From Flectonema sp. DT1601 (Eukaryota): a DNA stretch of 64,000 nucleotides. Positions 33,276 to 61,906 of the stretch are shown in pieces. The translations under genes and the position numbers were made by a program. The stretch spans positions 1,054,001 through 1,118,000 of the forward strand of contig OZ025793.1 in assembly GCA_964019425.1 (NCBI GenBank), read 5' to 3'. The notes beneath the pieces are model-generated. The model did not search any database and had not been told where the DNA came from. It worked only from the letters and a program-made list of their open reading frames with translations. Numbering within the stretch: the stretch's first letter is position 1; every line of letters starts with the position of its first letter.

Positions 33276-34587
33276 ATGGAAATATTAAATCAAAGGCTTT
33301 CCAAAATAGCAACAACAATAACAGATATAAACGACTATTATGATTTGGTCCCTGTTGACAATGATGATGGTATCCTGGGATCAGGAGGCTTCGGGATTGT
33401 GACCAGACGTCAGAAGAAAGGAGTTCCAGGACAAGAAAGAATCCCTGACACTAACGTAGCTATCAAAGAATTACAAAAAGAAACTTTATCGACACCTAAA
33501 AAGATGAAACACATGATGGTCGAACTGACTGTGATGGAACACTGCTCACATCCAAACATTGTTAAATTATATGAAATATTTCACACTAGTTCCACCATAT
33601 ACGTCGTAATGGAATTGTGTGCAGGTATTGAACTATTGAAGCTACTTTTAGACAGAGTTAATCCATTACCAGTGAGTGACTCAGCTATAATCGTGAAACA
33701 GCTACTCAGTACGCTACAGTATCTCCACAGTCAGCATATTGTACACAGGGATATTAAACCAGAGAATATATTAGTTGATCCTCATGATTTACACATAAAA
33801 GTTATCGATTTCGGATTAGCTAAATATTTCGGTCCTACCAACGCTGATTATCCTCATACTCCTGGAGCAGCGACACCAGTTTATGATGGAAGTAACGTAA
33901 TTAGTTCAACACCTTGTGGTACTTGTAATTATCTCGCATTTGAGGCTGTTGTCGGTATTCTTGATGGAGGTCGGCCGTGGTTCACTACCCGTCAGGAGAT
34001 TACTAAATTAGATACGTATGCAGTTGGTGTAATCTCACATGTTCTTCTCACGTTCAAACTTCCATTCCAGCCTCTCATTACTTGCGATGATCTCTCCCAA
34101 CGTCTTCATGAAACTAAAAAACTGCATGATGCCGGTCTCCGTTTCCCAGCAAGTGCCAGATCCGTTCCGACAGAAGCTCTTCAGGTATGTTGTTGTTTAC
34201 TTCAATATATTCTGAGTAAGTGATTATAAATATTAATTAATTATCAATTAGTTCGTGAAGCTGCTACTTAACCCCGATGCCAGAAAGCGACCAACGGCTA
34301 TGTTTGCTCTCGGTCACAAGTGGTTAGAGAATATCGTCGTACCAGTACGAACGTCTTGTGGTTCGATTACACAACTCCCGAATGCAAATAAAAATTTAGT
34401 ATTCAGCAAACCCGGAGGTAAAGGTTCTCGTATGTCGTTAAGCAACTCCTCAACTCAAGATTCTCAAAGTGCTCCTCCAGACTTTCTGGGAGAGGCAGAT
34501 GAATCAGAAGAAGAACCTATCAAGATATCTGGAAATGGTTTTGAAGAATTGTTACTGCGACTCAGAAAGAGCGAAGATGACGAGTGA
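33276..34587 (+). CDS. Ser/Thr protein kinase (CAMK-like), spliced, 414 aa
   Basis: GSGGFG, VAIK, HRDIKPEN, DFG, CGT; exons 33276..34184 and 34252..34587; exon 2 supplies subdomain XI (LLNPDARKRPTA..ALGHKW). Confidence 0.92.
34185..34251 (+). other. Spliceosomal intron (67 nt, phase 0)
   Basis: CAG|GTATGT...ATTAG; removal completes the kinase domain. Confidence 0.85.
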
Positions 34588-35167
34588 ATTCATTAAAAAG
34601 CAACCCTCACTGTTTTCAAGCTGTAACGACCAGGGCATGGGATGCTCAACCTGTAGTGCGTGGTCCCCGGGTCAATTTGACTTGACAGCATTTCTTTCTC
34701 TGGTAGTTTATTTAAAGCATGCGATTTTGTGTCGACAGAATCCAGTTATAATGATTCATGTCTAGTTTGTTGCGTGTTAACCTTGTTATTTATCCAAGTC
34801 CCCTCAAGTGCTCATGAGCTTTATAAAAAACTGTTACGGTAACGGTAACATAGGCAAGTGGCGCTCAACTATGTTCACTTGTCCTCCCGCTGACAGTCAA
34901 GATTGTCGGAGAAATTGTTGTTCCAGAATCAAATTACCCCTCACCTGTATCTGATGATGTTATATTGTAATTGTGATTATATTTAAATCAACTCGTCCTT
35001 GTTTATTTAGTTCAATTATTTCATTACTGAAGCTTGAGAATCGTACATACTGAATGTGTGAAATCAATTGTATTTTCTCTGTTAAAAGCAATCAATAAAT
35101 ATGATATAAAGTGAGAATCTACTTCCTTTTATTATAACATCTTTCACAGCACTCTAACTAATATAAA

Positions 35168-36666
35168 ATGACTCAGTCGATGGATTTAGGACTTAGTATC
35201 GAGCAGAGATTAGCTCGTCCAGACAGACACGGACAACCTCTGGCAAAGAAGATTTCTGATATAAACGACTTGTACGAAATCGTGACTGATCCGAGTGACT
35301 CTCAAGGACCTGGTGTCTTAGGATCTGGTAGTTACGGAGTAGTAAAGAGGTACAAGAAACGTGGCCTTCCAGGTCAAGAAAACATCCCTGACACGGCAGT
35401 CGCTATTAAAGAAATTGAAAAGAGGAGAGTAATGACATCTCAGAAAACTATGAAACACATTATCGTAGAACTAGTTGTGTTGAAGAAACTCTCTCACCCG
35501 AATGTTATTAGGCTATTCGAAGTCCTTCATGACGAGAATAAGATCTACGTCGTCATGGAAACCTGTCCAGGAGGAGAGTTGTACTCTTACATTGCAACTA
35601 AAAGAACACTTCCTCCAAGAGAGGCGGCGATCATTTTGAGACAGGTGTTGGAGGGGTTGAAATATATTCACGCACAACACATAGTTCATAGAGATATCAA
35701 ACCTGAGAACATCTTAATTGACAAGTCTGATCTGCACATTAAAATTATCGATTTCGGTCTCGCCAAATACTGCGGACCAACTTCATCAGAATTTCCTCAA
35801 AGCCCGAGTCCTGGTATGGCTATGATGCAGGAGACGTCATTACCTAGTCCTGCTATCGCGTCAACACCGTGTGGAACTGAACTCTACTTAGCACTTGAGG
35901 CTATTGTCGGTATCCTTGATGGTAAGATCGGTACTAACAAACCTTGGCTCAGTACACGATCCCGTCTCTCAAAAGTAGACGTGTATGGAGCTGGTGTTAT
36001 CACATACGCAATGCTTACTGGAAAGCTTCCTTTCCGCTCTGCTTACCGTCAGGTTAGAAGAACTGTAGAAGAACGTCAGCGTCGCCTTCAAGATTTAAAG
36101 AACAAAATCAGCAGCGGTCTCAACTTTCCAGAATCTGCAAAAGATCTTCCGGTAGAAGCGCTTGAGGTATGTTTTATTTTATTACTTTATCAGATCATCT
36201 AATTATAAATTACTCAAATTCCAAACAGTGTGTTAGAGAACTGATGCACAATGATATCGAATTCCGTCCATCAGCTGACAGAGCATGTCAATTAGAATGG
36301 ATCAGAGATGTTGAAATACCAATGAGACAAGTTAGAGGAACAACTATCATACCAGCAGCACTTAAGAGTGTTGCTCCTCAAAACAATGAAGGAAAGGAGT
36401 TTAAACTTCCTGGAAGAAGATCTGGAAACAGACCTGGAAATGCTCCAATCCCAGCTGGACCATCTCCTGTCGTTAAAGCAGGTGAGAAGGAAGTGGCTCC
36501 GATTGAATTTATTGCAGAAGACGACGATGAGGGTGAGGCTTGCCCTGGCACAGCTGACCCAAAGAATTTCAAAGACGGTTGGGCGCAACTCATGCGTAAC
36601 GTCCGTGAGGAAGAAGATGACGACATCGAAGAAAAAATGGAAGGAGAGGGAAAGAAGGATAATTAA
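35168..36666 (+). CDS. Ser/Thr protein kinase (CAMK-like), tandem paralog, spliced, 478 aa
   Basis: GSGSYG, VAIK, HRDIKPEN, DFG, CGT; exons 35168..36166 and 36229..36666; shares PGQExIPDTxVAIKE with the upstream kinase. Confidence 0.92.
36167..36228 (+). other. Spliceosomal intron (62 nt, phase 0)
   Basis: GAG|GTATGT...AAACAG, at the same protein position as in the paralog. Confidence 0.88.
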
Positions 36667-37735: not shown

Positions 37736-39123
37736 ATGGTACGCAAACTATCAGACCTCGAGTGTATAGAAAGTGAAGGACGTCGGATAGTCGAACTTAT
37801 AGCATCGCAGTGTTTGGAAACGTTAAACAAATGTTGGGCTTCAGTAAAAGATGTAACTTGTAACATAGAAGGAAGGAATCGAGAACAATTAACATCAACA
37901 GAACTAACTGAGGAAGTTAATGAACAAAGTGATCGAATAACAATCTGCCTTGATATCGATGGAACAATGTTATGTACTAATTTCGATGAGGATGAAGACG
38001 TAACTCAAGTGAACACCAGAGCTGGTCTAAGAGAGATGCTTGAAAGACTTCTAGACATTGAACCACAAGTCGAGATTGGCATATTCACAGCAGCTTCCCC
38101 TCTCTACGCCAAAGGTGCTCGTCGTCTTATAAACGATTTGGTCTGCGGGTTTACGGAAGACGTCTTCGACTTCTGTGTCTCTCACGACCCAGGAAGTGGA
38201 ATATTCACCGACACAAAGAAAGACTTATCAATAATAAAAAAAGACTTCTCAAAAGTTCTACTTGTTGATAACGATCCATCTGTTGTTGTTCATCCTCAGA
38301 GTACTGTTATTATACCAGAGTTTGATTACGATCCTAGAGGTAGAGATCCTGTTTTGTTAGATCTCGCTGAAATGATAAATGACTTGTCTCTTAGTGGTCT
38401 TACTGTGCCTGAGTTTTTGAAAGAGAAGGCTGATTCCAACTTCATATACGCTCGGGAGGGGTTGTACTACCTTCATAGGTATTGTGCGGAATGTAGCAAA
38501 CCAGAAGCTGAAGTACAGCTTGTGATCGATTCGTCGTACGACACGTGGGATTTGTACTGCTCTATCTGTTTTTCGGGTTTGAAAAAATCAAACACGCGGT
38601 CGTGTAATGGAACTCATTCAACCAAACCACAGACAACTGAACCTGTTCTCGATGAGAAACCTTCAGCTGCTCCTGTTGCTGTCAAAGAAATTCCAAAAGC
38701 ATCTGCGGTTCCAAAAAAAACACAACTTCCTTCTGAGACTGAGGAAACCACTGCCCCTAAAACAGCCAGCAAACCATCAAAGCCTCAAGCAAAAAAAACT
38801 GTATCGGCAGCACCTGTTGCGCCTAAAAAGAAAGCAGCTCCAAAGCCGTCTGTTGTAAGAGTGGTATGTTATTTTTAAACAAGTTTTAGTATAAATAAAA
38901 GCATCAATACAATATCAACAAACAGGTTACGTCAACTGGCATCCCAGACAATCTCCGATCAGCATTTCTTGATGACTCCGACCCAGCAGGTTGGGAGATC
39001 GGAACCGTCTCTGAAGCGGATGGTAAATCGTTTGCAACCCGAAAAGAGCTGTCGGTGATATCATCGGGCGGAAACCAAGAATGGCCTGCTCTTGGAGGGA
39101 GTAAGAAATCAGTAAAAAAGTAA
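37736..39123 (+). CDS. FCP1/NIF-family HAD phosphatase with zinc ribbon, spliced, about 441 aa
   Basis: ICLDIDGTM (DxDxT), RAGLREML, IFTAA..YA, KKDLS, LLVDN; CAEC...CSIC; exons 37736..38863 and 38926..39123. Confidence 0.85.
38864..38925 (+). other. Spliceosomal intron (62 nt, phase 0)
   Basis: GTG|GTATGT...AAACAG followed by an in-frame 65-codon exon. Confidence 0.75.
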
Positions 39124-45620: not shown

Positions 45621-48600
45621 ATGTTTTTGGTAGTGTTCATTCTGTTGTTTGCTTCAGTGGTAGGGTATGATGTAGAAGGGGCAGGGTCGACACTGACATG
45701 TGGACTAATGAGGGACCTTTATGAGGAATTCGGAACCCCTGGTGGTTACAATTGTATTGGATCTGGATCTGGAAAGACAAAAGTATTTCAATCAGAAACA
45801 ATGTACGCAGTATCAGAATACCCGCTGTTTGCAGACGAAGCAGCACAACACGGCGTTACTAGCCTTCCTCTAATAGCTGTTGAGGTAGCGATCGTTTATA
45901 ATCTTCCGAAGACTTCACGTCTCGTGATGTCACCTTCAATTTTAGGAGCGATCTTCACTGGAAAAGTAACAAATTGGAATGACTCAGAACTTGGTATCCT
46001 AAATGGTAATGAAATATCACTCCCAGATGAGAAAATAAAAATAACCGTCAGAAGCGGAGGGAGCGGAACGACATTTATGTTCGTAGACGCCCTTCGCAGA
46101 TTTGGTTCCATCCCAGCGGAGGATGTCAATGCAGTGTTTTGTGACGCAGTCGGTATTGAAACATGCAATAGATTAAACTACACAACGGTTGCGAAGACTT
46201 CAGATGTCGTTAGATTCGTAAAGGAAACTCCTTACAGTATCGGATATGTTGGAGTTAAGACTGCGATACAAAATAATCTTCCATTCGTTGGCATCTATTC
46301 AAATGGTGAAGTTCAACTTCCAACAGTTGAAAGTGGACTCGCAACGCTCGACGGTCTCATACCAGAATACTCAATCCCAACTGAGATACCAATTAACGGA
46401 TATCCAATCGAAGGTTTAGCATTTATCATTTACAGAGAAAACATCGCCACACCTGAAACATGTCAAGAAATGATCGCTTTGAATAATTTCATGAGAGATA
46501 TTTACAGCAATCAGTTTTCTTCATCTCTTTATGGAGCTAACTGGGTAGTTCCGATGACAGCTTCGGCGATAAATTTAATATTACAAAGGCTTGAGAATTG
46601 GAAAAAAACTGGAATGGCAGCGTGTGACGTTACCTTTGATCATTTAATTCCAGTATGGGGTCCTTTATCGAAATCACAGTACTACCAAATGCAAGTTAAT
46701 GCACATGGTCGGAGGTATCCTGGTGTTCGGGCACAGATAATTGATCAGCCTTCCTCGAGTGATCCCTTCTTCAAGGGTGTTGAAATATTGCAAATGCCGC
46801 TCAAAAGCCTTCTTGACCAAACAATAACACTAAACACCGGAGAGTACTCCCACCACCTTTTTGGAGTGAGAGAGTTGGTTTTTGTACATCACCAAGGTCC
46901 AGATGCTCATATTCCTGTGAGACTCTCGTATGATGTGATCCGCTCTATTGTTAATGGTTCTATAAGTAGTTGGGATCATTCGTATTTAGCAACTCATAAA
47001 AATGCTTTTACTGGACTTCCGACATCGGGAAAACTGCGATTTATACTGGCGGAGGAATACGTATCGATGAGTGAAGTCATTTCAAGTGTCTTGGACCTCC
47101 CGGTGGTGTCACTTCGTTATGAACTAGTTACGGCTTCTGAGTTGAATGATTTGGTTGAAGATCCTCATGTAATCACATGTGTTGATTTGGATCGTAGTCC
47201 TTCAGGAGCAGGTGTTATTCTTCCTATTGTTGATGATGAAGAACGAGTTCCATTTAGATTTCGAACATCAGATTTTCAAATCCTCTCAAATGGAACTCTA
47301 ACAGTCAATCATCAAGAAGCAATTTATCCTTTTTCTTACATTCTAATTCATCAGGTCCCGCGGTCAATCGTTATTGATCAGGGAGCTTATACAAAACTGA
47401 CTGGATCTTTTATGGATCCTTGCCTGGAGTACATTGCGGGTGAAGTTATTCCATACTTACAGTTTAGCTCAGCCTTTGGTGGGATTTCAGGGGCACCAGC
47501 GGCGACTAACCGAGAAATTAACACAATAAGCTGTAATGGCGAATTACTCTTCCCTCCTGGAAGCACGATAAACATTTTAGTCATAACGCTTCCTGCAGCT
47601 GGAGCAACTCTTTTATTAGTAGTAATTATCGTAATGTACTTTAAGAGAATGTTAGGTAAGTCACAAGGTGAGATAAAGTACCTTATTGATAATAACAAAC
47701 TAGCCGTGGAAATTGCAGAAGCCATCGCTGATATGCGACTCGAAGCCATTGCGTGGATTTCTGAATTAGAAGACCCGGATAAGTTACAAGAATGCTTTGG
47801 AAAGATTATTACAAATCTATTTGAGTACAGGAGATATTTACCAGACACTATTCTTTATCAAAGTGATAGAGAGTCACGTGAAAGTATTCGTATGGTAGAG
47901 CCTCCTGAAGATGATTCCTGTGTAACTATTGTCTTTACTGATGTTCAAGAGAGTACTTCTCTGTGGGACGCATTATCGGAATCGATGGCTGCAGCTCTTC
48001 GTGTTCATCATGGAGTTATTCGGGAAGTTATTAAAGAATGTGATGGTTATGAAGTGAAGACGATCGGAGATGCTTTCATGGTAGCATTCAGAACACCTCT
48101 GGACGCTGTCAAGTTTGGAATTCTAGCTCAGCAACGTCTATTAGTAGCTGAGTGGCCCAGCAGTATTCAAAATCTGGGTATTTGTGAAACAAAGTGCACT
48201 CCTCAAGGTCAGAAATTATGGTCTGGTCTTCGAGTTAGAATTGGTATTCACTGCGGAGCTGTAACATCAGAAGAAGACACAATCACAGGTCGTAAAGACT
48301 ACTACGGACCAACTGTAAACAAAGCATCTCGTGTCGAAGCTAAATCAATGGGAGGAGTCGTCATGATAAGTGAAGAAGTTTACAAAGCAGTTTTCGGTGA
48401 GATCCAATCAATGAACATATCTGTTCAGGCAACTGGTGACCACGAGCTGAAAGGAATTACAGGAAAGCATCCATTACATTGCTTAGCGCCTACTGAATTA
48501 GCTGCTAGATTAGAACTGTCAACTCAACTTCGTCCTCCAGTTGATAGAAAAATCACCGTGAGTATCGCTAGTTCAGAGTCTACTAAGAATATTCCAAAAA

Positions 48601-49460
48601 CTAAATTAGCTGCTCACTTCAAGTCTGTCACTGGCAGTGTCATGTTCGCTGAGTTAAAACACAGCAGAGAAGTTATGTCACCTGGCTTACTTAACTCTGT
48701 TTGTACTGCCTTTGTCGATATGATTGATGTAGCAGCAGACCGTTACGATGGAACTATTCATACACATCTTGGTAATGGTTTACTAATTGGATTTAATACT
48801 GGCACCAAACAATGTTCTAACTTTATGCAGTCCGCATGTAAGTGCGCAGCGTTTCTCGCCTCAAAAGAACCCGCAATGGGAACCCTGCGAATGGGATTAT
48901 CTGCTGGGATCTTTGCCTCTGGTAATGTCGGTGTTAGAAAAAGAACTGCGACCCTGTCCTCTCCTCATGTGAGTATCGCAAATATGCTTTGCGCGACGGC
49001 TAATGATTTAGGTGCGACAGCTTTGTTTGCAGAGATGCCTGATTGTCCATCGATTGCTAAAACAGCTGGTGTGAGTGGAGTTGTTCGTCCCCTAATGAAG
49101 TGGACGATTGACACTACAAAGGTTGCAGTGATTCATGAACTTAATTGTGAGATATTTGACGATTGGGCTTACTCATACGATCCGAACTGGGGACAATCAT
49201 CAGCCGTCGCATCCATATTTGAAGAAATCTGGACTAAGCGAGAACAAACAAATGTAATGGACATGGCTGGCTTTATCACTGCCGCGGATGCAAATCCAAA
49301 AGATTTAGTTCTTGGACGCATTGCACGAACCCGTCCAGCAGAATACTTTAATATGTATAGGTTGGTTCAAGCAGCATCACCTGAATTAGTAGGGGGTAAG
49401 TTTTCCACTCCAGTCCTGGATGCTATCAGCGGAGCTGAAAAAAGTACAGATAAATTTTAA
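45621..49460 (+). CDS. Receptor-type adenylate cyclase with PstS-like ectodomain
   Basis: Signal peptide MFLVVFILLFASVVG. PstS motifs: GAGST, GSGSG, IFTGKVTNWND, RSGGSGTT, SIGYV, YPI. TM at about 47574-47642. Class III cyclase: VFTDVQEST, YEVKTIGDAFM, LRVRIGIH, DYYGPTVNKASRVE. Degenerate second cyclase domain follows. Confidence 0.92.
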   Translation: MFLVVFILLFASVVGYDVEGAGSTLTCGLMRDLYEEFGTPGGYNCIGSGSGKTKVFQSETMYAVSEYPLFADEAAQHGVTSLPLIAVEVAIVYNLPKTSRLVMSPSILGAIFTGKVTNWNDSELGILNGNEISLPDEKIKITVRSGGSGTTFMFVDALRRFGSIPAEDVNAVFCDAVGIETCNRLNYTTVAKTSDVVRFVKETPYSIGYVGVKTAIQNNLPFVGIYSNGEVQLPTVESGLATLDGLIPEYSIPTEIPINGYPIEGLAFIIYRENIATPETCQEMIALNNFMRDIYSNQFSSSLYGANWVVPMTASAINLILQRLENWKKTGMAACDVTFDHLIPVWGPLSKSQYYQMQVNAHGRRYPGVRAQIIDQPSSSDPFFKGVEILQMPLKSLLDQTITLNTGEYSHHLFGVRELVFVHHQGPDAHIPVRLSYDVIRSIVNGSISSWDHSYLATHKNAFTGLPTSGKLRFILAEEYVSMSEVISSVLDLPVVSLRYELVTASELNDLVEDPHVITCVDLDRSPSGAGVILPIVDDEERVPFRFRTSDFQILSNGTLTVNHQEAIYPFSYILIHQVPRSIVIDQGAYTKLTGSFMDPCLEYIAGEVIPYLQFSSAFGGISGAPAATNREINTISCNGELLFPPGSTINILVITLPAAGATLLLVVIIVMYFKRMLGKSQGEIKYLIDNNKLAVEIAEAIADMRLEAIAWISELEDPDKLQECFGKIITNLFEYRRYLPDTILYQSDRESRESIRMVEPPEDDSCVTIVFTDVQESTSLWDALSESMAAALRVHHGVIREVIKECDGYEVKTIGDAFMVAFRTPLDAVKFGILAQQRLLVAEWPSSIQNLGICETKCTPQGQKLWSGLRVRIGIHCGAVTSEEDTITGRKDYYGPTVNKASRVEAKSMGGVVMISEEVYKAVFGEIQSMNISVQATGDHELKGITGKHPLHCLAPTELAARLELSTQLRPPVDRKITVSIASSESTKNIPKTKLAAHFKSVTGSVMFAELKHSREVMSPGLLNSVCTAFVDMIDVAADRYDGTIHTHLGNGLLIGFNTGTKQCSNFMQSACKCAAFLASKEPAMGTLRMGLSAGIFASGNVGVRKRTATLSSPHVSIANMLCATANDLGATALFAEMPDCPSIAKTAGVSGVVRPLMKWTIDTTKVAVIHELNCEIFDDWAYSYDPNWGQSSAVASIFEEIWTKREQTNVMDMAGFITAADANPKDLVLGRIARTRPAEYFNMYRLVQAASPELVGGKFSTPVLDAISGAEKSTDKF

Positions 49461-52400
49461 ATAAATACGGCTCTTCGTTCCTTGTTGTGTTCTTTTTGTA
49501 GTCAGGAAAAATTATTTTATGCAGTGTATGCGTTAACTGTCATTTAATATAATTCTGAGTACTCTTGTGAATGAAAGAGTCTCACGATCCGTGAGATCCA
49601 CCTCAAAGAGAAAGAAAAAAAAAAAAAAAAAGACGAACAAGAAATAAGGACTAGTGGGAAGCTTGTAACGATTCGCGTGTGCAGTTTTCCTCTTACCTGT
49701 GTGGGGTAATATGAATCCGACATTTTTTTTTAAAATCACCGTTAGCTATTGGATTTTGGAATCTGGGATAAATATAAATAATTAAGAAAATCACTTATTT
49801 TCTTGGGGTGAGTCAAACTCCGAAAAAATAGAGATTTTTTTTTTTTTTTTTTTCCCCTTCTTCTACTTTCTTTTTTTTCTGTTTTTAGAGCAGCGTTGAA
49901 CAAATAAAAAAAAAAAAAAAAATAATAATAATAAATCTCACTGTCTTGTAACAGGAATGTAAGGTGGATTTTTTGTAGCACCTTATTTAAAATTCAATCT
50001 CTAATTTACGACCCGTCAAACAACCAAAAAAATTATTATTTTGTAGACTTGGACTTGAAGACTTGTTCTGTTTTTAAATTTATAAAATAAAAAAAATATA
50101 AAAAAAAAACCTGAAAATTATGGTTTTTTGGAAACACTTGTTTTTTTTTTTTTTTGTACTTCTTCTTCTTCCACTACGGCGTTTGCAGGGAGTTTTACCA
50201 AAATACTAACATTACTTTTTTTTTTTTTATAGTCAACTATTTTTGCTAAAATTGGTTTAACTTTGATACGACGATATAAAATATGCTCAAACAAATTTTT
50301 ACTCTAAGAAAAAGGCAAATCCAGTTGTGTGGGTTTATTGACAATTTATTGACTCTCACCCCCACACCTGCTGTCAAGGTAAATGGGAAGATATCATCAT
50401 AATTATGGTTTTTTCTTATTTCGTACGTAAATTTCGCTACGTGCGCCTGCTTTGCTTTCATCTTTCCAATTCAACAAAACAAATATTGCAATTTCTTTTG
50501 AATTGTCTTCTTTGACTCTCATTGGGAATGCAAACTGGATGAGGTTAAAACCACTGTTATAAACGGATAAGTTTTTTTTTTCTCGCCGGTTCGGACGTAG
50601 TTTGGGGAATCTACTTCCTCTGCTACTATGTCTTCTTGTGTAATGAAAAATAACTGAAAGCAAAAAAAAAAGAGATGGACTGTACAACACAAAATAAAGA
50701 ACAAGGGTAACTGTGATACGATCTTTGATGTCTTTAGTACTGCAAAAGATCTTCGTACTTAGTACGGTATCGGGTGTTCTGCTTAGGGATCCTCACGGAA
50801 GCCACAATTTAATAACGTGGCTTTTTATTTTTATTAGTTTAGTGAGATACTTTATCACTTCTACGTAGTGTTGTATTCTTTTATGCTGCTGTAGATACGC
50901 ATCCATATTTTTTTAGTTGGCAGCTGCTTTGCTGCTGGCTGTTATTGGTTTTTTTTTTTTAATTTCACATCCTGGAGTCCATATCCCGAGACTGCAGAGT
51001 TTTTTTTTTTTTTTTTTTTTACTAAAAAAAAAAAAAGAAAAAAAAATAAATGAAGAAATTTCTTTTGTTGTTTTTTTTTTTTTTTCCGTCCGTTTCTTCT
51101 GAGAGGTGATTACTTTTTTTTTCTTCTTTTTTTCTGTTAGTTATTGTTTTGGTTTCTACATATTTATCTCGTTCGCTTTCCAAGATGAAAGTGATAACGG
51201 AACACACATCTCTTTTTGCTGCTGATGCTTTGCTTTTGCTCATTCTCGACCAACAGCAAAAAGAACAGCAAAAACTCAGCGTTTGTATAACTGGGGACAC
51301 TCTATAGCAGCTATTTATCTTTGTTATTTTTGAGCATTTGCTTTATATTATTGCTCTCTTCTCCATCCGGCCAGATTTTCTCTTTTTCTCTTTTTCTCCT
51401 TTTGGACTCTTAGTCACCACAGTAATACTTCTTGCTAAAATCACGGTATTGTATATTCCATTTTCTGGCAGCAGCATGAACATGCTTTGCTTCGTAAACG
51501 ATTTGATAGTTACTTTCTTTCGCAAGAGCTATGCAAGCGCGGATTAGTAGTGCTTTTCTTAATAGTGTGGGGGATCAGAAGTTCGAAAAATCCCCCGACT
51601 GCACACAACTTCTTTTTTAGAGCAAGCCTCTTTAGTGTCACCTGTCCTCTGCGAAAAAAAAAAACAAAAAAAACAGACGTTTTGGGTACAATAGCCTCAT
51701 ATGGAGAGGGGTCTTCTTTTTTTGAATTGAAAACCTCTATATAAATTATTAAAATACTTTTACAATACAATTACATATTGTTTGGCGGATATAAAGTTGT
51801 GACAAAATAGAAGAAAGAAAGCTGAACAAGAAATATCATGAAACCCCTTACACATTTCTTCATCTACTGAACTAGCAGCTGCCGCATGGCCTCTTGCTCA
51901 AACGGATGAGTTCGGTGAGCGTGATGAGTGACCCTAATGTTGCTTCTAGCTTCACCTTGTATTTAGTAGCTGGCTGCCCGTCGTCTTTCCTTCGACTTTA
52001 CTTGTACTTTCCATCCATTTTTTTATTTATTTATAATTAATAATTATTATATATTTTTTCTTCTTTTTTTCTTTCCTTTCTCAACGGTTGGTAGTTTATT
52101 TTTATTTTTATTTTTATTATTATTTTCTTCTTTTTTTTTTTTTTTGATGTTAAGAAATTGAGACAAAACAACCTGTCTTACATCTAACTGCGTTATAATT
52201 TTACTAAGTAGGTAACCCATCTTCTTAACCCTGAAGTAAATAAGTATGACACCTTTCTCTAGTAGTTCTTTGGAACTCTTTTAAGGTTTCTTTCTCCATT
52301 TTTCTTTTATTGCCTTTTTTTTGCTTAGTAGTGATAGATCAAAATCGATAATTCCTACGTATGCGAATATGCCACGGCTAACTTTGCTCTCTGCTTGTCA

Positions 52401-55400
52401 TACTTCCCTCGATTTAACATTATTACTTGTCTTTTAAGTATTCATATTACGTTGTTAAATCAACCTCGCTTTAATAGGTTTGGGGACGATTTCTGTTTCA
52501 TTGTAACAAATTTCCCTTCCATTAAACATTTTTTTTTAAAAATAATTTTTTTTTCCCCTCCTTCCTTTCCACAATACACATGAAGCAAGTAGACAGCCTA
52601 TTGGTTGGTAAATTGTCTTATTGATGTGGTTATTTTGTTACTGAAGTAGGTGATCATAGCAACGTAGTGTTGATTTAATCGCTTACGGCAGTATGACTAC
52701 CGACATCTTTTTTTTAACGAATGCATGTATTTCTTACATGCATGCGGGTTTGCGGGCTTTCGGGTGCAATGTCCTAAATCTGAAAAAGAAAGTAGGAAAA
52801 TCCATGTAACAAACACAAACCATTAGTTGCTTTGTGAGAAAATTAACCTAGGTGATCCTTTATTTTTTTTATTTTTATATACCACAAGCTCACCTAAAAA
52901 GTTTAGAGAAAACAGTATACACTACGGTCATGGCCTTGTGGAGCATTTTTTCACACTAGGAGATGTATTCAAATCCGTTATTATTATTATTTTTTTTTTC
53001 TTTTGCGACACAAAATTCTGTAAAGTTTATGGCGTTCCATGTTATTGTTCCACCAACAAGCCTTATCAGTTTTATACCCTCTATTGACCGTTCCTTGCTT
53101 GGCATAGGACGGTACTGCTTTTTTCGAATCGTAGAGGGAAAAAATTCGTTTCTGAATGATGTGAAATTTTTTTTTTTTCTTCCGTCGTGTGTTTTAACAA
53201 CTGGAATCTTATGCAGCAAGAATTCGTGATTCAATTTTCTTTTTTAAAAAAAAAAAAAAAACTTTGAATTCTTTTTGCGAATTGCGCATAGTCGAAGCTT
53301 CACACGTCTCACAATCTTATTAAAGAACAGAAAATACTAAAAAAAAAAAAAAAAAATCTTTTCACTTCTGACTCAGGTCCCATCTGGCGTGGGGATTTAT
53401 ATTGCGATATTTGTAAGTACATGCGAGAGTCTTTAATGTTGTTCTAATGTTCCTTGCTGCTGTGACCGAGGTCACTTAATGTAGGGCGAGGAGTAGAGGA
53501 CAGCCCTCCCCTTGTTCGTGCTTTGGTTGTAAAACGACCTAAGCCCTTCATGTCGTCATTCATTATTTCTTCTTCCGTTGTTGTTGTTGTTGTTTTTTTG
53601 CCTCTCCAGTTACATATTTTGTGTTGATTTTTTTTATTTTTTTTAAAAACGAAAAAATGTAGATACTCGGCGAACCCTTTACATATTATTTTTTTCAGCA
53701 CTGCGACTACAACGTTATGTTATTACAATTGTACCTTGTGGAGTGACCAACGTCACATCGCATCGGGGACCTTATTTTCATTGATCCTTATACTTTATAT
53801 CATAGTGATAGTACTCCTTTCCCGCGATTAGATACCAATTGCTTCCTTGGTGAACGTTCCCAGGAGGATATAGAGATGCTACCTCATTCAAATAATTGGG
53901 TTCAGGCCAGAGAGGCTTGACGTTATTTTTTTTCGTTTTTTTTTTTTTTACTTTGTGCCGTGCAGTTATTAAAGCAGTATCACGAGATCTCTCTTTTTTT
54001 TTTTTTTTTTTTTTTTTGCCCCTTTTTCCTTCCCCATCCTACCCCTTCCTATGTTATAATTTTTTGACAATGGAAGTGCTCTGTTTGATAGCAGGGAATA
54101 ATTGTTGTGCATATAATGATTCCTCATCCTTGTACAACAGTTTGCTTGTTGCGAATTTAAAGGGAAAACCATACCATTCCTTTGTTAGTTACCCACCCTA
54201 CGGATTATCGCGTTCCTCGGCGAAAAAAAATCTATTTATATTCACCAATCACAAATTGCCTCATTTTTATTTTATTTTTTGTACCTACCAAAACCCTTTT
54301 AAGTGATTTGCGTTTCGATTAGTTGAGCTCCTTCACGACCCGTATTTTTCGACTAAAGAAAAAAGGAGTTTATGTTATTGATAGCCATACACTGCTCGAG
54401 TGAAAATATTAGAAAATATTTCCAGGAAGAAAAAAAAAACTTTTGTTTTCACAAATGTTGCGATTTTCTTTTGAAATTTTGCAAAGTCTAACTATGCGGC
54501 ATTATTGTACTGCGCAAGGGGTTTTTCTTTCAGTGAAAGAATACTGTGCGCGGTCATCTTTGTATTGAGGTTGTGAATTTGTTTTAAATTAGTTTGGCAA
54601 GTGAATTAGTTAACTACCTTTGTCACAGTTCAACCTTTCTTGTATAGTTTTGCGACAAGGATCTGCCCCCCGCCCAATTATTGTTTCTGCATCTTTACCT
54701 CAAAACCTTTTTTTTCATTTAGGTATCCTACTTACGTTTGTTTTCCCCCCAGCTACGGTTGTTATTTTGATACAAGTTATTTCTGGTCGTGTTTTCATCT
54801 TTTCTTTTCATCGACGTTTTTTTTTTTTTTTTTTTTTTTCATTCTTTCATTTATTTATTATCAACCTGCGGAGAACGCTTTCCTGAATTGAAAGTGTTCA
54901 GCAACAAAACAATACATCACTCTCGAACAATGTTACTAATCTACTCTCCACACGATATGGTGAGTTCTTATGTCTGCTTTGTGGCTGTGGCTGGAGCAAT
55001 GGGTCTGCCACTGAACACTAAACATATAGAGAACAATTGTTGGCTTTACTGAAAATTTCTAAGTAATTCACATCTATTTATTTCTTTTTTCCCTACTTGC
55101 GGATTGCTTTGATTGTTTTTATTCTTCGTCTTCCACCACGTTATATCTCTCGTTGATTGTGCACAGATACACACAGTGTAGATATTCTTATTTTTTCGTC
55201 CTCTCCATTTTGATACACATAACGTGTCGGTGACTTCTCATTCTGTTATTAGCGTAATACGATTTGACCTCACACACAAAAAAAGATTAATCTGCATGGG
55301 GCAACTTCCGCCTTGAGATAATGCAGGCAGAAAGTTTTCTGCATCGGTAAGTGTTTTAATTTTTTATGTTCCCCCTCCCTTTTTTTTTTTTTTTTTTTGA

Positions 55401-58400
55401 AAAAAAAAAAAAAACTCAAGGTGTACTATTTTGACTATTTTTTATTTGGTTTTTCTAAAGTACCTCGTTGTTAATTCTACTACCCAGCAGGATTTTTTCT
55501 GAACGATTTTTATGAATAAGGATATAAGTCGGTTTACGGTTTTAATCATTTTTATCACAAATTTCGTGTAGTTGAAGTTAAATCCAATTCTTTTTTTTTT
55601 ACCTATGCCTTGTTTTTTTTTCAGCTTGCTTAATCCACACTGCGCTTTTGTAACAAAGGAATGTATCATTGGCGTAGTAGTCAAAATTATATATTAGTTA
55701 ATGTTTGTCTTGTCTTTGATTTTATTTTGCAAAAAAAAAAAAAAAAAAATATTGTTCTGCTTTTAGTCAAAGATGCCTTGCAGTAACCACATGTATTACA
55801 CATCCTTTCAGAACACCCGACAACACTTTGAAACGCTTTTGAACAGACCTTTCCACTCAACGAGGAACGCTCCTTCTGTATTTCAAAAAGAAAAAAAAGA
55901 AAAAAGGGAAAATCCGTTTTGTACTTATAAGCATATGTCACCCACAGGTAGTGTCCTCGGAACTGATTTTACTTTTTTTTTGTTTTTTTTTGTTCTGTTG
56001 ATAAAAATTATAAGTATCTGTGTTTTTACATGGAAAATAGTTAGCCTCCTACAAGCTGTTTTACTTATGGAACTTGAAAAAAAAAAAAAAAGTGTCGGAA
56101 GCTTTTGTATTTTTCGTCCTCAATTTGGTTCTAAAAATGAAATATTATTGCGCATTGTATTCTCATACACTCATTGGCAATGGCTATTATGAAATGAAAT
56201 CATAATTTTATTTACATCTTTATTCCCCTCATCTACGAACGCCTGCTGTTCTACTTTATGGTTTCGGAAGAAGCTTTCTGCCAGTATATTTATCTACCCT
56301 GTGGATCACTGTTTTTTATTCATCTTGTTTTGCTAAAGTTTATTTAGAAAGCGTTTTTTCACTATTTCGGACGTCTTGCTTCAGCCATCCTGCTAATTTA
56401 TAATGCACTGACTGAAGCTGCGTAGGATCTTTTACCTTTAACCTGAATTGCGAGAGTGATTTTGGTTATGCTGTTCTTGTATGTTCGTATTTTTATATTT
56501 ACGGTTACTAGGATACACTCAGATCTTCCTCTCTGGATCTAGTATGCCCCCGTGCCGAAGCTAATGAGATAGACCTTTCTGGGGATTAGGTTCTATCCAA
56601 AACCTTGGGCTTGCCACAACTAACAAACTAAATGCGTTTTTTTTCTTCACAATAAACTCATATACTAACTTCCCTTGTACTTTTGTCAGGTGAGACTTTA
56701 TGATAAATGGTGCTGTTCTGGTAACCCATCTGAATTATTTAAAAATTCCTTTTTCAGATTGTGTGATGCCACTGATTTTTTGATCACCTCCTCTTTTAAT
56801 TTATTTAACAGAACTGACTTAATCTTGTTGATCACTCCATCGCTATCCATTCTTTTACCCAAATCTATATCTTAATACTCGCAGATAGCGTGAGTCGCAT
56901 GCGCACTGATGCGCGTTTTCTAGTAACCCCCAAGCTACTTTAGAAGGCTTGTCTTAAGTCAAATAGATGCCTGAAACCTTATCTGGCATTGAAAGCTTAT
57001 TCTATTCGTAACTGGGGTTATGTGTTGTCTTTATTGTTCAAATTTTTGAAACTGACTCTTCTGCTTTTTCTGTAGTGACTAAGATAATACCTGATGCAAT
57101 TTACTTGTAAACTGAGTTAAAAAAGTAGCTCTCAGTCGTATGACTACAAAAATGTCAAACTCCTGCTTTCAACTTTGCAACTGATAAGTCGTGTTCAATA
57201 CAACTGACTTTACAATCGACTTAGTAGATGTGCGATGTACTCCTTTTTTTTAATTTTCGGCAATAAAAACAAATATTCCAAGAGTTGTCCAACTTTCCTA
57301 AGCAAAGAGGCTGTTCTCCCCCTCTAATTGCTTTTTCTGATTATGGCTAAAAAATTCTCTCCCCGATGTTCCTGTCGTGGCTGGGCAGCATCTATTAGCA
57401 TTGCAGAAAGCATGAGGCTTAATGTACCTCAAAGAAGACTTATTCTGTCGTAAGTTTTTCATCATTAACAGAAAAGATGTGTTCTCTTTACTGTAACTAC
57501 TGTGAAAGATGGGGTTTCAATAGTATTCCACCTTTGTAATTAAAACAACGGTTTGCCTTCAGACATCGTCATAAAGAAACTAATATAAATAAAAGGGTTT
57601 GATTTTTTAAATTTTGTCCTTTTTTTTTTATATTTTTAAAAATCTTTTTTTTTTTTTTTTTTGAAATGTCGTTTGTCTGGGTGGGGTTTTTGCTTTTCTT
57701 TTACTTCTAGTCGAAGCTGTGAGACTGCAATCTTCGCGATTGGGTCCTTACTGATGCGGGCTACTGAGACTCCCTCGTAGTCATCAGTTCTGTATTTGCT
57801 ACCTAACTTACGTCTACTTCCGATGTGGAAGAAAGCACCCCTCTATTGCCTTAATGGATCGCGTTATGTGTTCTTTCGTTATCTAGATTCTATGAAGTGT
57901 TGTTCTAAATTTCTTCTTACTGTATGAAGAAGACGTAGTCGTTATTTTTATGTTTTCTCTTCGTTTTATTGGTGCTGTTACCTCCCTTTGTGAGGTCACT
58001 GTTACCATTCCTATACTTATTATTATTATTATTATTATTATTTTCTTTTTATTATATTTAAGTTAGTGGATGTTTTTAACCCCCTAACAACGAACTCACA
58101 CGTTTGTTAACTACTTATCGATAATCCTCTCTGACCTGATCTTTAGTCCTCATTGGCTTGCATATGTGGTTTTGGGGCCTGAGAATTCACTTCCCAAAAC
58201 AGCTTCTTAATCAGTCGTCATCTGTCACCTATTGGCGGCCGGTATTAAAGGTGGTTGCAGACAAGGTTACTCGGTAGTCGCTATTGAAAATAAATATGGA
58301 AACTTGCTCCCTATAGAAATTGTTGTTCCTTTTGAGCTTAAGAATGCAGTATCAAAGTATCTCTGTAGTTCTGTTACCAGATTTTCAAAAAATTATTCTC

Positions 58401-60036
58401 AAAAGCAATTAGTGATTGTTACTAACATAGCACAAAATAGAGACGTCCCGCTTTCTGCATCAAAAAAACCACATAAAATTATTCTTGCAAGGCGTAGCAG
58501 CCATCGATTGTTTCTTCCCTTTTTTTTTCTTTCAATCGCATATTTTCCAACCACTTACAGTATGCTAACACTGGTGTTACATCTTGCCAGTACCCCACTG
58601 TGTTGTTAGGCATCACGTGCCACTCAGAGTGAGAAAAGAGGTATCGCTCTCTTCGATTGCAGAGTTTATATATAACACGGTGTTTGAGATTACGTAGTCA
58701 AAGAAGTCTGACAGATGTTTGCCACAGCTGATGTCATAAGCAAACGTGTAGCTAACGTGACTTAGTTCTTTGTGTGGGATTCGCTCCCATGCGAACATCA
58801 GTTTTCTTATTCACTTTCCTTCTTTTTGTGTTGGTTTGTTTGGTTTTTTTTGTTACAAAACAAGAACTGCCTCATAGTTTCTCTTTTTTTCTCCTTTTTT
58901 TTTCTTAAAATTATTTTTTTTGAAAGAAAGGGAAATCTATGTGAGCGCGAAAAAAAAAAAAAAAATTAAAATTAAAATAAAAAATCCATTATTGTTCTGA
59001 TTTGAGCAATTACGTGGGTAAAAGTGAGCAAGCAACAATATCATCTGCATCTGCGCAGTAAATACAGTTTTTTTTTTTTTTTTTTTTTTTTGAAAGGAAG
59101 CGCTGCTTCTTTTCTTAAATCCCTTTCCGACAGCATGTTGCACTCGCAGGATTAGATCATAATATTACCCATTGGTGAGAGGCTTCTTATTATTATACTT
59201 TACTGCTGTGGTTCTCTCTCTTTTTTTTCCTTCTTCCAACTTCTGTTCTTTTTAAAAGCGGACATTCGCAATCGCTGAATCCGTTGAGAAAAAAAAAATT
59301 AGTAGTCAATGCAATGGTGTGTTTTTGCACGCCAATAGTAAATTTAATCGCTTCCGCAACATGCGGATGATTAGATTTTTCAATTCCCTAAGAACAGCCA
59401 CCTCGTTATTCACGTATGGTACAGCTATTACTCCTGTTTTCTTTTTTTTGTTTCTGTTAAGTGGAGTCTTCTGTATGTTTGCATATTGCAGGTTGAGGGA
59501 TTTTGTTTGAGGGTGCTAAACTACGGCGACTTTTTTTTTCTTTCCCCTCGATTTTTTTTTTTTTTTTTGGAGTTATATTCTTCTCCTTCCTTATCTTCCT
59601 TTAGTTGGTTGGTACAAGGACAATCAACATTAAAAAATAAATTAAAAATAAATGAAAAAAGGAAACTCCATTTGTTTTTTTAACTTTTTACCGTTTTCGG
59701 CACAAACAATTCTTTTCTTTTTTCTTGTTAGTAAGCAGCTGTTTTTGGATCTTCTCGATCTCTGTTGTTTCTGGTGACATTAAAAAAAAAAAAAAAAAAA
59801 AAAAGAATGTTGGCGTATTGCTCAACTACTGTCTTAGTCGAACCCAACGAGGTTCGCGCACCCATGTTCATGAAGAAGGATGAGTTGAATGTTGGATTTT
59901 GAATAATATTATATTTTTATCAGGTAGCACGAGGTATTGTTCGTAAATGCGATTTCACTCAACAAGACACCATGATATGATCTAACTTCTTATCTCATAT
60001 TCTCAGGATACTCACTCACTAAGACAGTTATAAAAA

Positions 60037-60695
60037 ATGGGAGACACTACAACGAATCTACAGGTGACCAACTCAGAACTGGTATGAGTATTTCATCTGT
60101 TGATATGTTCTTTTTTTTTTTTTTTTTTTTTTGCCTTTTTAATTTCTCTTTGTTGCATCGTTTTTATAATTCTTTTTTTTGTTTCCCCCCAGCTCTCGTT
60201 TTTCAATTCAAAATGGGTGAGTCGACTACAGCTATGATGTCAACCAATTCTGAGCTGGTATGATGCAGCACTTTTGTTAAATTTTATACAAATTTTCTAA
60301 ATGTTAAAAAAACAAAACACATTCAGGTTACCCATATCGACAGCATGAAGGAAAAGCGTTCTGAGCTAGACAGATTCATCCAGAAAGAAGAAGAGGTATG
60401 TGACCTGGATTATTTAACAGTACGATATTGACGTTTTTTTTTTGATTACCAATAATATAACAATCAGGAAAAAGCTCGTATTGTCAACGATTTGAGAATC
60501 CTTAATGAACGCCTTGCCAGAGTTGACGAAGGTCTTGCAAGAAAATATGCTGCTAGACAGGAATACGACAAGACAATCGCTGAGACTGAAAACGCATTTA
60601 GCAAGATTATTGATAGCTCGCGGACGCTTCTTCACGTGCTTAAAAGAGAGAGCACAACCCTCAGCAAGAAGCACGTCTCTGATAATTGGTCTTAA
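60037..60695 (+). CDS. SSNA1: SSNA1/DIP13/NA14 microtubule-associated coiled-coil protein, 113 aa, with alternative first exons
   Basis: Exon 1a 60037..60081 or exon 1b 60213..60257, then 60327..60395 and 60468..60695. Product ...TNSELVTHIDSMKEKR...ERLARVDEGLARK...EYDKTIAETENAFSKIIDSSRTLLHVLKRE matches SSNA1. Confidence 0.9.
60258..60326 (+). other. Spliceosomal intron (69 nt, phase 0) after SSNA1 exon 1b
   Basis: CTG|GTATGA...ATTCAG; keeps the SSNA1 frame. Confidence 0.85.
60396..60467 (+). other. Spliceosomal intron (72 nt, phase 0)
   Basis: GAG|GTATGT...AATCAG; joins QKEEE/EKARI as in SSNA1 EEEDEK. Confidence 0.88.
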
Positions 60696-61339: not shown

Positions 61340-61906
61340 ATGGTGTTGTGGGAAGCTATAGTTATAATCCATCCAACTGTGGCGAGGGAGCAGCTGGCGA
61401 ACACGTTGAAGTCTTTTTGTAGAGTTCTACTTGAAGACGGTGGCGTTATTAGAAAACTCAGAAATGAAGGTATCATGAGAATGCACAGAGGTATGCATAC
61501 AGGCCCTATGGATAAAAGAAGAATGTACGTACCAGCAATCCATCAGTGGAGAATTCATGAACCTGTTGATGAGAAAATGTTCTTTCATGGAAGGTACATG
61601 GTGATGTTATTCGACGCTTCAGTAGACTCGGCGATGCATTTTCAAGAACTTGTAAACAACAATCAGTTTACTCTTGAGTGGCAGATTCGTCATCGTTCCA
61701 AACATCATCCGCTCGCTGCCTTTAAAGATCCCCACGACTATGAAATCGGTCACGATCTCAACAACGTATCCGAAGAAGAAGAAGAACTCCTACAATCTCA
61801 CAAGGGATGGAGCGAATGGAAAGGATTTCAGGCATCGAGATGGTCCAACTACCTCGCTCAACAGCCGGGTGGTACTTCAGAAATTACTACAGCGAGTTCA
61901 GCATGA
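61340..61906 (+). CDS. MRPS6: Mitochondrial ribosomal protein bS6m-like
   Basis: WEAIVIIHP...GGVIRKLRNEGIMR...GRYMVMLFD follows the S6 pattern; NEGIMR recalls kinetoplastid bS6m. Confidence 0.75.
   Translation: MVLWEAIVIIHPTVAREQLANTLKSFCRVLLEDGGVIRKLRNEGIMRMHRGMHTGPMDKRRMYVPAIHQWRIHEPVDEKMFFHGRYMVMLFDASVDSAMHFQELVNNNQFTLEWQIRHRSKHHPLAAFKDPHDYEIGHDLNNVSEEEEELLQSHKGWSEWKGFQASRWSNYLAQQPGGTSEITTASSA

What the first reader, a model, noticed from the sequence alone, without database searches (positions are those of the whole stretch)
59985..60330. SSNA1/DIP13 has two duplicated, apparently mutually exclusive first coding exons
Seen: exon 1a (60037-60081, MGDTTTNLQVTNSEL) and exon 1b (60213-60257, MGESTTAMMSTNSEL) are both exactly 45 nt. 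Both end CTG|GTATGA, and each has its own pyrimidine tract and AG upstream (60006 and 60192). Joining 1a to the 60192 acceptor adds 20 nt and reaches a TGA, so both cannot be included via that site. TNSEL is conserved despite different codons (ACC AAC TCA GAA CTG versus ACC AAT TCT GAG CTG), suggesting selection on both. Known: the SSNA1 N-terminus mediates head-to-tail fibril assembly and microtubule binding. Inference: two isoforms are chosen by alternative SL trans-splicing or alternative starts, which is unusual for a euglenozoan.
Basis: partly seen in the sequence, partly recalled or inferred. Interest (0 to 1): 0.75.

Follow-up and report, generated by a model that had tools for sequence, protein, structure and literature searches.

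The report
Two swappable first exons in SSNA1
A marine flagellate's gene for the microtubule-binding protein SSNA1 carries two intact, anciently duplicated first exons that likely give the protein two alternative front ends, as seen in transcripts of a related species, and the choice is likely made by where the spliced-leader RNA is attached rather than by two promoters.

Summary
The window is from a diplonemid; its SSNA1/DIP13 gene has two 45-nt first coding exons (1a, 1b), either of which gives a 113-aa protein with the shared exons 2-3. Both look selected: differences pile up at third codon positions, the flanks no longer align, and 1a keeps the family's ancestral motif better than 1b. A Flectonema neradi transcript protein matches the 1b product but for one residue. 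Diplonema japonicum has two transcript isoforms of one gene that differ only up to the same exon boundary, so two first exons are a shared diplonemid feature. No RNA run was listed, so use of 1a here, and the selecting mechanism, are inferred. The all-one-strand gene cluster and pyrimidine-rich acceptors, unlike the A-rich cis acceptors of this window, favour alternative spliced-leader addition (about 60%) over cis mutually exclusive splicing, two promoters or a silent copy. The swap spares the fibril-junction residues, which lie in exon 2. Alternative first exons and alternative trans-splicing are each known; the combination was not found in print for euglenozoans in my searches.

The parts
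59981..60006 (+). pyrimidine-rich stretch and AG acceptor upstream of exon 1a (likely SL addition site A)
   Evidence: pyrimidine 0.78, A 0.22 in -25..-3; top 8% of 208 background YAGs
60007..60036 (+). predicted 30-nt 5' UTR of isoform A, no ATG
60037..60081 (+). exon 1a coding part, 15 codons, ancestral-type N-terminus (LQ.TN.EL)
60082..60326 (+). predicted 245-nt intron of isoform A (GTATGA...CAG), contains exon 1b
   Evidence: junction not observed in RNA
60111..60192 (+). T22 run, pyrimidine tract and AG acceptor upstream of exon 1b (likely SL addition site B)
   Evidence: pyrimidine 0.87, A 0.09; top 2.4% of 208 background YAGs
60193..60212 (+). predicted 20-nt 5' UTR of isoform B
60213..60257 (+). 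exon 1b coding part, 15 codons, derived-type N-terminus
   Evidence: 14 of 15 residues match the F. neradi transcript protein P0001
60258..60326 (+). 69-nt cis intron, A-rich 3' end
   Evidence: junction implied by P0001
60327..60395 (+). shared exon 2, 23 codons; holds the positions matching C. elegans Y15, R18, L19
60396..60467 (+). 72-nt cis intron, A-rich 3' end
60468..60695 (+). shared exon 3, 75 codons and TAA
   Evidence: 100% identical to P0001
59924..59933 (+). candidate 10-nt non-coding micro-exon (unsupported; needed only by the cis-splicing rival)
   Evidence: donor GTATTG, 73 nt before 60006; similar layouts at 5 of 20 other gene starts

Best explanation
The SSNA1/DIP13 gene has two intact duplicated first coding exons that likely yield two 113-residue isoforms differing in 6 of the first 10 residues, likely chosen by which of two acceptors receives the spliced leader. 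Leader addition at 60192 would leave 1a upstream of the mRNA (isoform B); addition at 60006 would keep 1a, whose donor would skip the pyrimidine-rich 60192 site and use the A-rich cis acceptor at 60326, removing 1b inside a 245-nt intron (isoform A). The two tails would tune bundling, microtubule affinity or location of the same coiled-coil fibril rather than switch fibril formation on or off. Shown: anatomy, open frames, selection pattern, B junction in a near relative, two first-exon isoforms in D. japonicum. Inferred: use of 1a in this organism, SL sites, function.
For: Selection on both: differences by codon position 5/3/10 of 14 (Fisher p 0.01); 6 of 8 shared residues use different codons; flanks unalignable (891 of 1000 shuffles reach the score, each side); random placement of 18 substitutions keeps ATG, GT, open frame and 9 or more identical residues in 18 and 38 of 200,000 trials. 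1a carries the ancestral motif better than the expressed 1b (13.7 vs 2.2 bits) and is 10 of 14 identical to the R. humris N-terminus, so it is not a decayed copy of 1b. F. neradi P0001 equals the 1b product except residue 5. D. japonicum Trinity isoforms i1 and i2 of one gene differ only up to the same boundary, 0 differences in the next 90 residues. All 18 ORFs of 200 aa or more lie on +, fitting co-transcription; essentially all D. papillatum mRNAs carry SL (PMC10161547, passages). All 7 inferred cis acceptors are A-rich (0.48-0.61; 8% of 208 background YAGs reach 0.45), whereas 60006 and 60192 are not. Precedent for SL addition inside an intron: PMC11613528 section 7.
Against: No read or transcript shows the 1a junction or any SL site here. 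Both isoforms with one body are seen in 1 of 7 named diplonemid species; the others show one type each in this collection, and D. papillatum has two separate genes (14 differences in 90 residues). The 245-nt intron is far longer than the 7 others found (60-72 nt), which were picked by a GTATG search at ORF ends, so the cis set is small and biased. The nearest-YAG sites of 20 gene starts look like background (median A 0.28 vs 0.26), so a trans-acceptor signature is not established, only the absence of the cis one. Orthology of 1b to the other B-type exons is unresolved (7 of 14 to D. ambulator, 3 of 14 to D. japonicum i1, 7 of 14 to the A-type R. humris). The AlphaFold model shows helix from residue 2 (pLDDT 83 for residues 1-10), not a disordered tail.
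Confidence: 0.6

Rival explanations
1. True cis mutually exclusive splicing: one SL site upstream (for example 59923), a short non-coding exon (59924-59933), whose donor is spliced either to 60006 (1a) or to 60192 (1b).
For: 59934-60006 is 73 nt, the size of the other introns, with a TCTAAC 20 nt before the AG; frameshift and stop on joining 1a to 60192 would penalise double inclusion.
Against: Donor GTATTG differs from GTATG in the 8 other donors listed (those were selected on GTATG); 60006 and 60192 lack the A-rich cis signature; a GTA/GTGAG 55-85 nt upstream plus a nearer-upstream AG occurs at 5 of 20 other gene starts, so the layout is common by chance.
Confidence: 0.17
2. Exon 1a is a silent or rarely used 5' repeat, like the tandem 5' gene-end repeats of D. 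papillatum; only isoform B is made.
For: PMC10161547 section 7 reports dozens of genes with tandemly repeated 5' UTR/CDS pieces, and one array shown not to be in mRNA. Only the B form is in the protein collection for F. neradi (cluster of 1).
Against: Third-position bias, unalignable flanks, kept ATG, length and donor; 1a is the more ancestral sequence; A-type N-termini are expressed in R. humris, D. japonicum and D. papillatum.
Confidence: 0.11
3. Two promoters, one before each exon, as for alternative first exons of animals, with SL added afterwards.
For: A 10.5-kb stretch without long ORFs precedes the gene and could hold a start site.
Against: Unbroken one-strand cluster; only 131 nt between the 1a donor and the 1b ATG, mostly a pyrimidine tract; D. 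papillatum genes are thought to be co-transcribed (PMC10161547, passages).
Confidence: 0.08

Closest known systems
Alternative SL trans-splicing in trypanosomes (T. brucei isoleucyl-tRNA synthetase, T. cruzi LYT1; cited in PMC6597758, passages)
   Same: Two pyrimidine-tract/AG sites in one gene, likely giving proteins with different N-termini in a co-transcribed cluster.
   Different: There the N-terminus is lengthened or shortened within one frame (recalled; the passages say inclusion or exclusion of targeting signals), and conserved cases are rare (PMC6821157, abstract). Here a homologous exon with its own ATG and donor replaces the other, which needs cis-splicing as well.
SL-exon2 and intra-intronic SL isoforms of trypanosomatid PAP1, RBP20, DBP2B (PMC11613528 section 7)
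   Same: Cis- and trans-splicing compete within one gene; SL can be added inside an intron.
   Different: Those isoforms lose exon 1 without a replacement; here the intron holds a second complete, selected first exon.
Tandem-exon-duplication substitutions, alternative first exons and mutually exclusive exons of animals (PMC8373072, PMC5740500; search listing only)
   Same: Homologous same-length exons used one at a time.
   Different: Chosen by promoters or by cis-splicing after a shared upstream exon; neither is shown here.
Tandem 5' gene-end repeats of D. papillatum (PMC10161547 section 7)
   Same: A copy of the 5' coding piece lies just upstream of the gene; a plausible origin for the duplication.
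   Different: Those copies include UTR and intergenic DNA at 47-96% identity in the figured case and are not in mRNA; here only coding positions and the donor are kept.
SSNA1/DIP13/NA14 family (C. elegans SSNA-1, PDB 9DSM; T. brucei DIP13)
   Same: About 110-aa single coiled-coil protein; E 4.6e-5 to 9DSM, 59% to an animal SSNA1-like protein.
   Different: T. brucei DIP13 uses one mapped SL acceptor (PMC3282761, passages); no alternative first exons were found in my searches.

Membership tests
SSNA1/DIP13 | sequence homology over the whole coiled coil | tested here: met
   hits named SSNA1 / deflagellation-inducible protein at 85-100%; 9DSM E 4.6e-5. The local Pfam copy gave no SSNA1 family; hits carry precomputed PF27720, unnamed in the output
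SSNA1/DIP13 | about 110 aa, all alpha-helical | tested here: met
   113 aa, helix 2-111, pLDDT 93.7, model of P0001
SSNA1/DIP13 | self-assembly and microtubule binding | not testable with these tools
   needs protein work
alternative SL trans-splicing | pyrimidine tract plus AG before each start | tested here: met
   pyrimidine 0.78 and 0.87; top 8% and 2.4% of 208 background YAGs
alternative SL trans-splicing | gene in a unidirectional cluster | tested here: met
   18 of 18 ORFs of 200 aa or more on +
alternative SL trans-splicing | SL observed at both acceptors | not testable with these tools
   no RNA holder listed
classical mutually exclusive exons | homologous, same-length tandem exons with own donors | tested here: met
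   45 nt each, GTATGA donors, 9 of 15 residues alike
classical mutually exclusive exons | shared upstream exon cis-spliced to either | tested here: inconclusive
   only a weak micro-exon candidate
classical mutually exclusive exons | double inclusion unproductive | tested here: inconclusive
   stop via 60192, but in frame via AG 60221
promoter-driven alternative first exons | separate transcription start before each exon | not testable with these tools
   no cap or nascent RNA data
silent 5' repeats of D. papillatum | copy decays evenly, flanks included | tested here: not met
   third-position bias and unalignable flanks
silent 5' repeats of D. papillatum | copy absent from mRNA | not testable with these tools
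   no RNA holder listed

The most novel reading that the evidence does not exclude
Diplonemids run alternative first exons without alternative promoters: the spliced leader picks one of two duplicated coding exons, and a composition code (A-rich cis acceptors versus pyrimidine-rich trans acceptors) lets the upstream exon jump over the downstream one. In SSNA1 this switch is older than the Diplonema-Rhynchopus-Flectonema split and gives two microtubule-binding tails for different structures or life stages.
Probability: 0.35. Interest if true: 0.75.

Novelty: new variant of a known kind. Interest (0 to 1): 0.56.

Why it matters
Euglenozoans are thought to lack gene-by-gene promoter control, and conserved proteome diversification by alternative trans-splicing is reported to be rare in trypanosomes (PMC6821157, abstract). 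A conserved exon swap driven by SL-site choice would be a clean counter-example and a 300-nt test system for how one spliceosome tells cis from trans acceptors. It also offers natural N-terminal variants of SSNA1, whose tail function is unsettled.

Tried and rejected
No whole genome is held. No RNA holder was listed, so no reads were laid; this is no evidence either way. Metagenome scans found no related locus (589 pattern matches, none confirmed; 0), so no relative's genomic DNA was seen. A search for short fragments with residues 1-50 found nothing. Rfam: 0 matches in the window. The repeat finder gave only low-complexity A/T runs among the families shown. Foldseek on the single-helix model: 0 matches, uninformative. 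A tree of the shared 98 residues was mostly unresolved (3 of 14 inner branches starred; D. japonicum i2 left out as identical to i1), so it cannot date the D. papillatum paralogue. E. mutabilis isoforms differ in body and C-terminus, not at the N-terminus. N-myristoylation of the MG starts was set aside because D/E follows Gly (rule recalled). Earlier scan notes: nothing relevant in 5 look-ups. Five intronless ORFs of the window sit in single-member clusters, so the host is only shown to be close to F. neradi in this one protein.

Full report
Observation. Each exon joined to exon 2 (60327-60395) and exon 3 (60468-60695) gives 113 aa; the products differ in 6 of the first 10 residues. Joining 1a to 60192 shifts frame and stops at 60235; of the 5 AGs between the 1a donor and the 1b donor, two keep frame (60221, giving 125 aa; 60254, giving 114 aa), both GAG sites inside 1b.

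Identity. Exon 3 found 15 proteins among 17 candidates; the best is 100% identical and labelled Flectonema neradi, the next are from Rhynchopus, Diplonema and Lacrimia and are named SSNA1 or 13-kDa deflagellation-inducible protein. The host is therefore a diplonemid close to F. neradi in this protein; five other window ORFs have no 90% neighbour. All 18 ORFs of 200 aa or more are on the + strand.

Are both exons alive? The F. neradi protein equals the 1b product except residue 5, which supports the 1b-exon 2 junction in a near relative. For 1a the evidence is indirect but consistent. Differences between the exons fall 5/3/10 on codon positions 1/2/3 (p 0.01), 6 of 8 shared residues use different codons, and 60 nt on either side align no better than shuffles; a crude neutral-decay simulation (uniform substitutions, no indels, designed after seeing the data) kept this much in 18 and 38 of 200,000 trials. 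A profile from 99 of 117 non-diplonemid homologues ranks 1a first of 4166 frames, well above 1b: 1a holds the ancestral LQ.TN.EL pattern and cannot be a worn copy of 1b.

Relatives. Nine named diplonemid proteins from 7 species were found. D. japonicum has two Trinity isoforms of one gene, 112 and 114 aa, that differ only up to the residue matching the end of exon 1 and are identical over the next 90 residues. N-termini fall into an ancestral A type (1a, R. humris, D. japonicum i2, D. papillatum 113 aa) and a looser B type (1b/F. neradi, D. ambulator, D. japonicum i1, R. euleeides), while bodies follow species (R. humris A and R. euleeides B differ at 2 of 90). That is the pattern alternative exons predict. 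Against over-reading: only 1 of 7 species shows both forms with one body; D. papillatum has a second whole gene (14 of 90 differences); L. lanifica's one protein fits neither type; and 14-residue comparisons cannot show that 1b is orthologous to the other B exons. The seven euglenid-type outgroup proteins printed plus P0009 all start with the A pattern.

Mechanism. Seven cis introns were inferred in the window, found by G|GTATG at ORF ends and by restored frames; they are 60-72 nt long. All 7 acceptors are A-rich in -25..-3 (0.48-0.61), a level that 8% of 208 background YAGs reach; 60006 and 60192 have A 0.22 and 0.09 and pyrimidine 0.78 and 0.87. The nearest YAGs of 20 gene starts differ from the cis set (A, p 0.0006; 0.003 without this gene's introns) but not from background, so what is shown is that the two sites do not look like cis acceptors. 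In D. papillatum essentially all mRNAs carry SL and genes are thought to be co-transcribed (PMC10161547, passages). In trypanosomes SL sites follow pyrimidine tracts and polyadenylation is placed about 100 nt upstream of the active tract (PMC6597758, passages); if that holds here, use of 60192 would cut the RNA near exon 1a, making the choice exclusive by itself (inference). SL addition inside an intron is documented in Leishmania (PMC11613528 section 7). I put this model at 0.60, cis exclusion after a micro-exon at 0.17, a silent copy at 0.11 and two promoters at 0.08. The weak point is the 245-nt intron that isoform A needs. Both alternative donors read GTATGA while the 6 other donors read GTATGT, which may be inheritance or regulation.

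Function. The 9DSM chain is 124 aa for a 105-aa protein; taking a 19-residue offset (my inference, it puts Y15, E18 and E20 of the 3E mutant in register), residue n here matches C. elegans n-3. The variable residues 3-10 then match the tail that is disordered and forms luminal density between fibrils (residues 1-8), TNSEL matches the helix start, and the junction residues Y15, R18, L19 map to exon 2 (PMC12350680 sections 7-8). SSNA-1(11-105) still forms fibrils and branches microtubules, while 18-105 binds them less (section 9). A short N-terminal extension changed the location of T. brucei DIP13, which has one mapped SL site (PMC3282761, passages). So the swap likely tunes bundling, affinity or location. 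My AlphaFold model of P0001 draws a helix from residue 2 and does not confirm a disordered tail in this protein.

Comparison and novelty. Tandem exon duplication, alternative first exons and alternative SL addition are each known. Ten searches listed no paper on alternative first exons in a diplonemid or in SSNA1; SSNA1 with diplonem* gave 0 papers; the 7 readable supplements of PMC10161547 do not mention the gene, its Additional file 1 was too large to read, and PMC13615690 has no mention. The library lacks most subscription journals. PMC2904332 (abstract) is a nematode case of alternative trans-splicing that makes a shorter transcript. The D. papillatum paper describes tandem 5' repeats that are not in mRNA; these are the main rival and also a plausible origin for the second exon. 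Verdict: a real, selected, probably conserved pair of alternative first exons; a new variant of a known kind; interest 0.56.

Noticed in passing
window 49461-59980: About 10.5 kb T-rich on + strand with no convincing ORF or Rfam match between the adenylate cyclase stop and SSNA1; may be a very long 3' UTR or intergenic DNA.
   Followed up: partly
window introns 711-774, 1306-1365, 34185-34251, 36167-36228, 38864-38925, 60258-60326, 60396-60467: Cis introns are 60-72 nt, start GTATG and end in an A-rich, not pyrimidine-rich, stretch.
   Followed up: partly
window 33276-36666: Two tandem protein-kinase genes, each with an intron at a matching position near the 3' end.
   Followed up: no
window 12112-17403: Intronless 1763-aa ankyrin-NACHT-pentapeptide-WD40 protein, an NLR-like layout.
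   Followed up: no
window 45621-49460: Receptor-type adenylate/guanylate cyclase with a periplasmic-binding-protein-like ectodomain.
   Followed up: no
window 26726-29431: EF-hand plus PIP5K fusion.
   Followed up: no
window 61340-61906: Ribosomal protein S6 family gene, probably mitochondrial, directly downstream of SSNA1.
   Followed up: no
protein P0008 versus P0004: D. papillatum has a second SSNA1 gene with a 26-residue N-terminus, on a contig of the same length as the first.
   Followed up: partly
proteins P0027, P0125, P0127: Euglena mutabilis SSNA1 isoforms of one Trinity gene differ in the middle and at the C-terminus, hinting at alternative internal or last exons, or close paralogues.
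   Followed up: no
protein P0007: An unnamed Rhynchopus-like gene call starts at the position of the exon 2/3 boundary and reads through an extra in-frame insert, suggesting the same intron plus one more.
   Followed up: no
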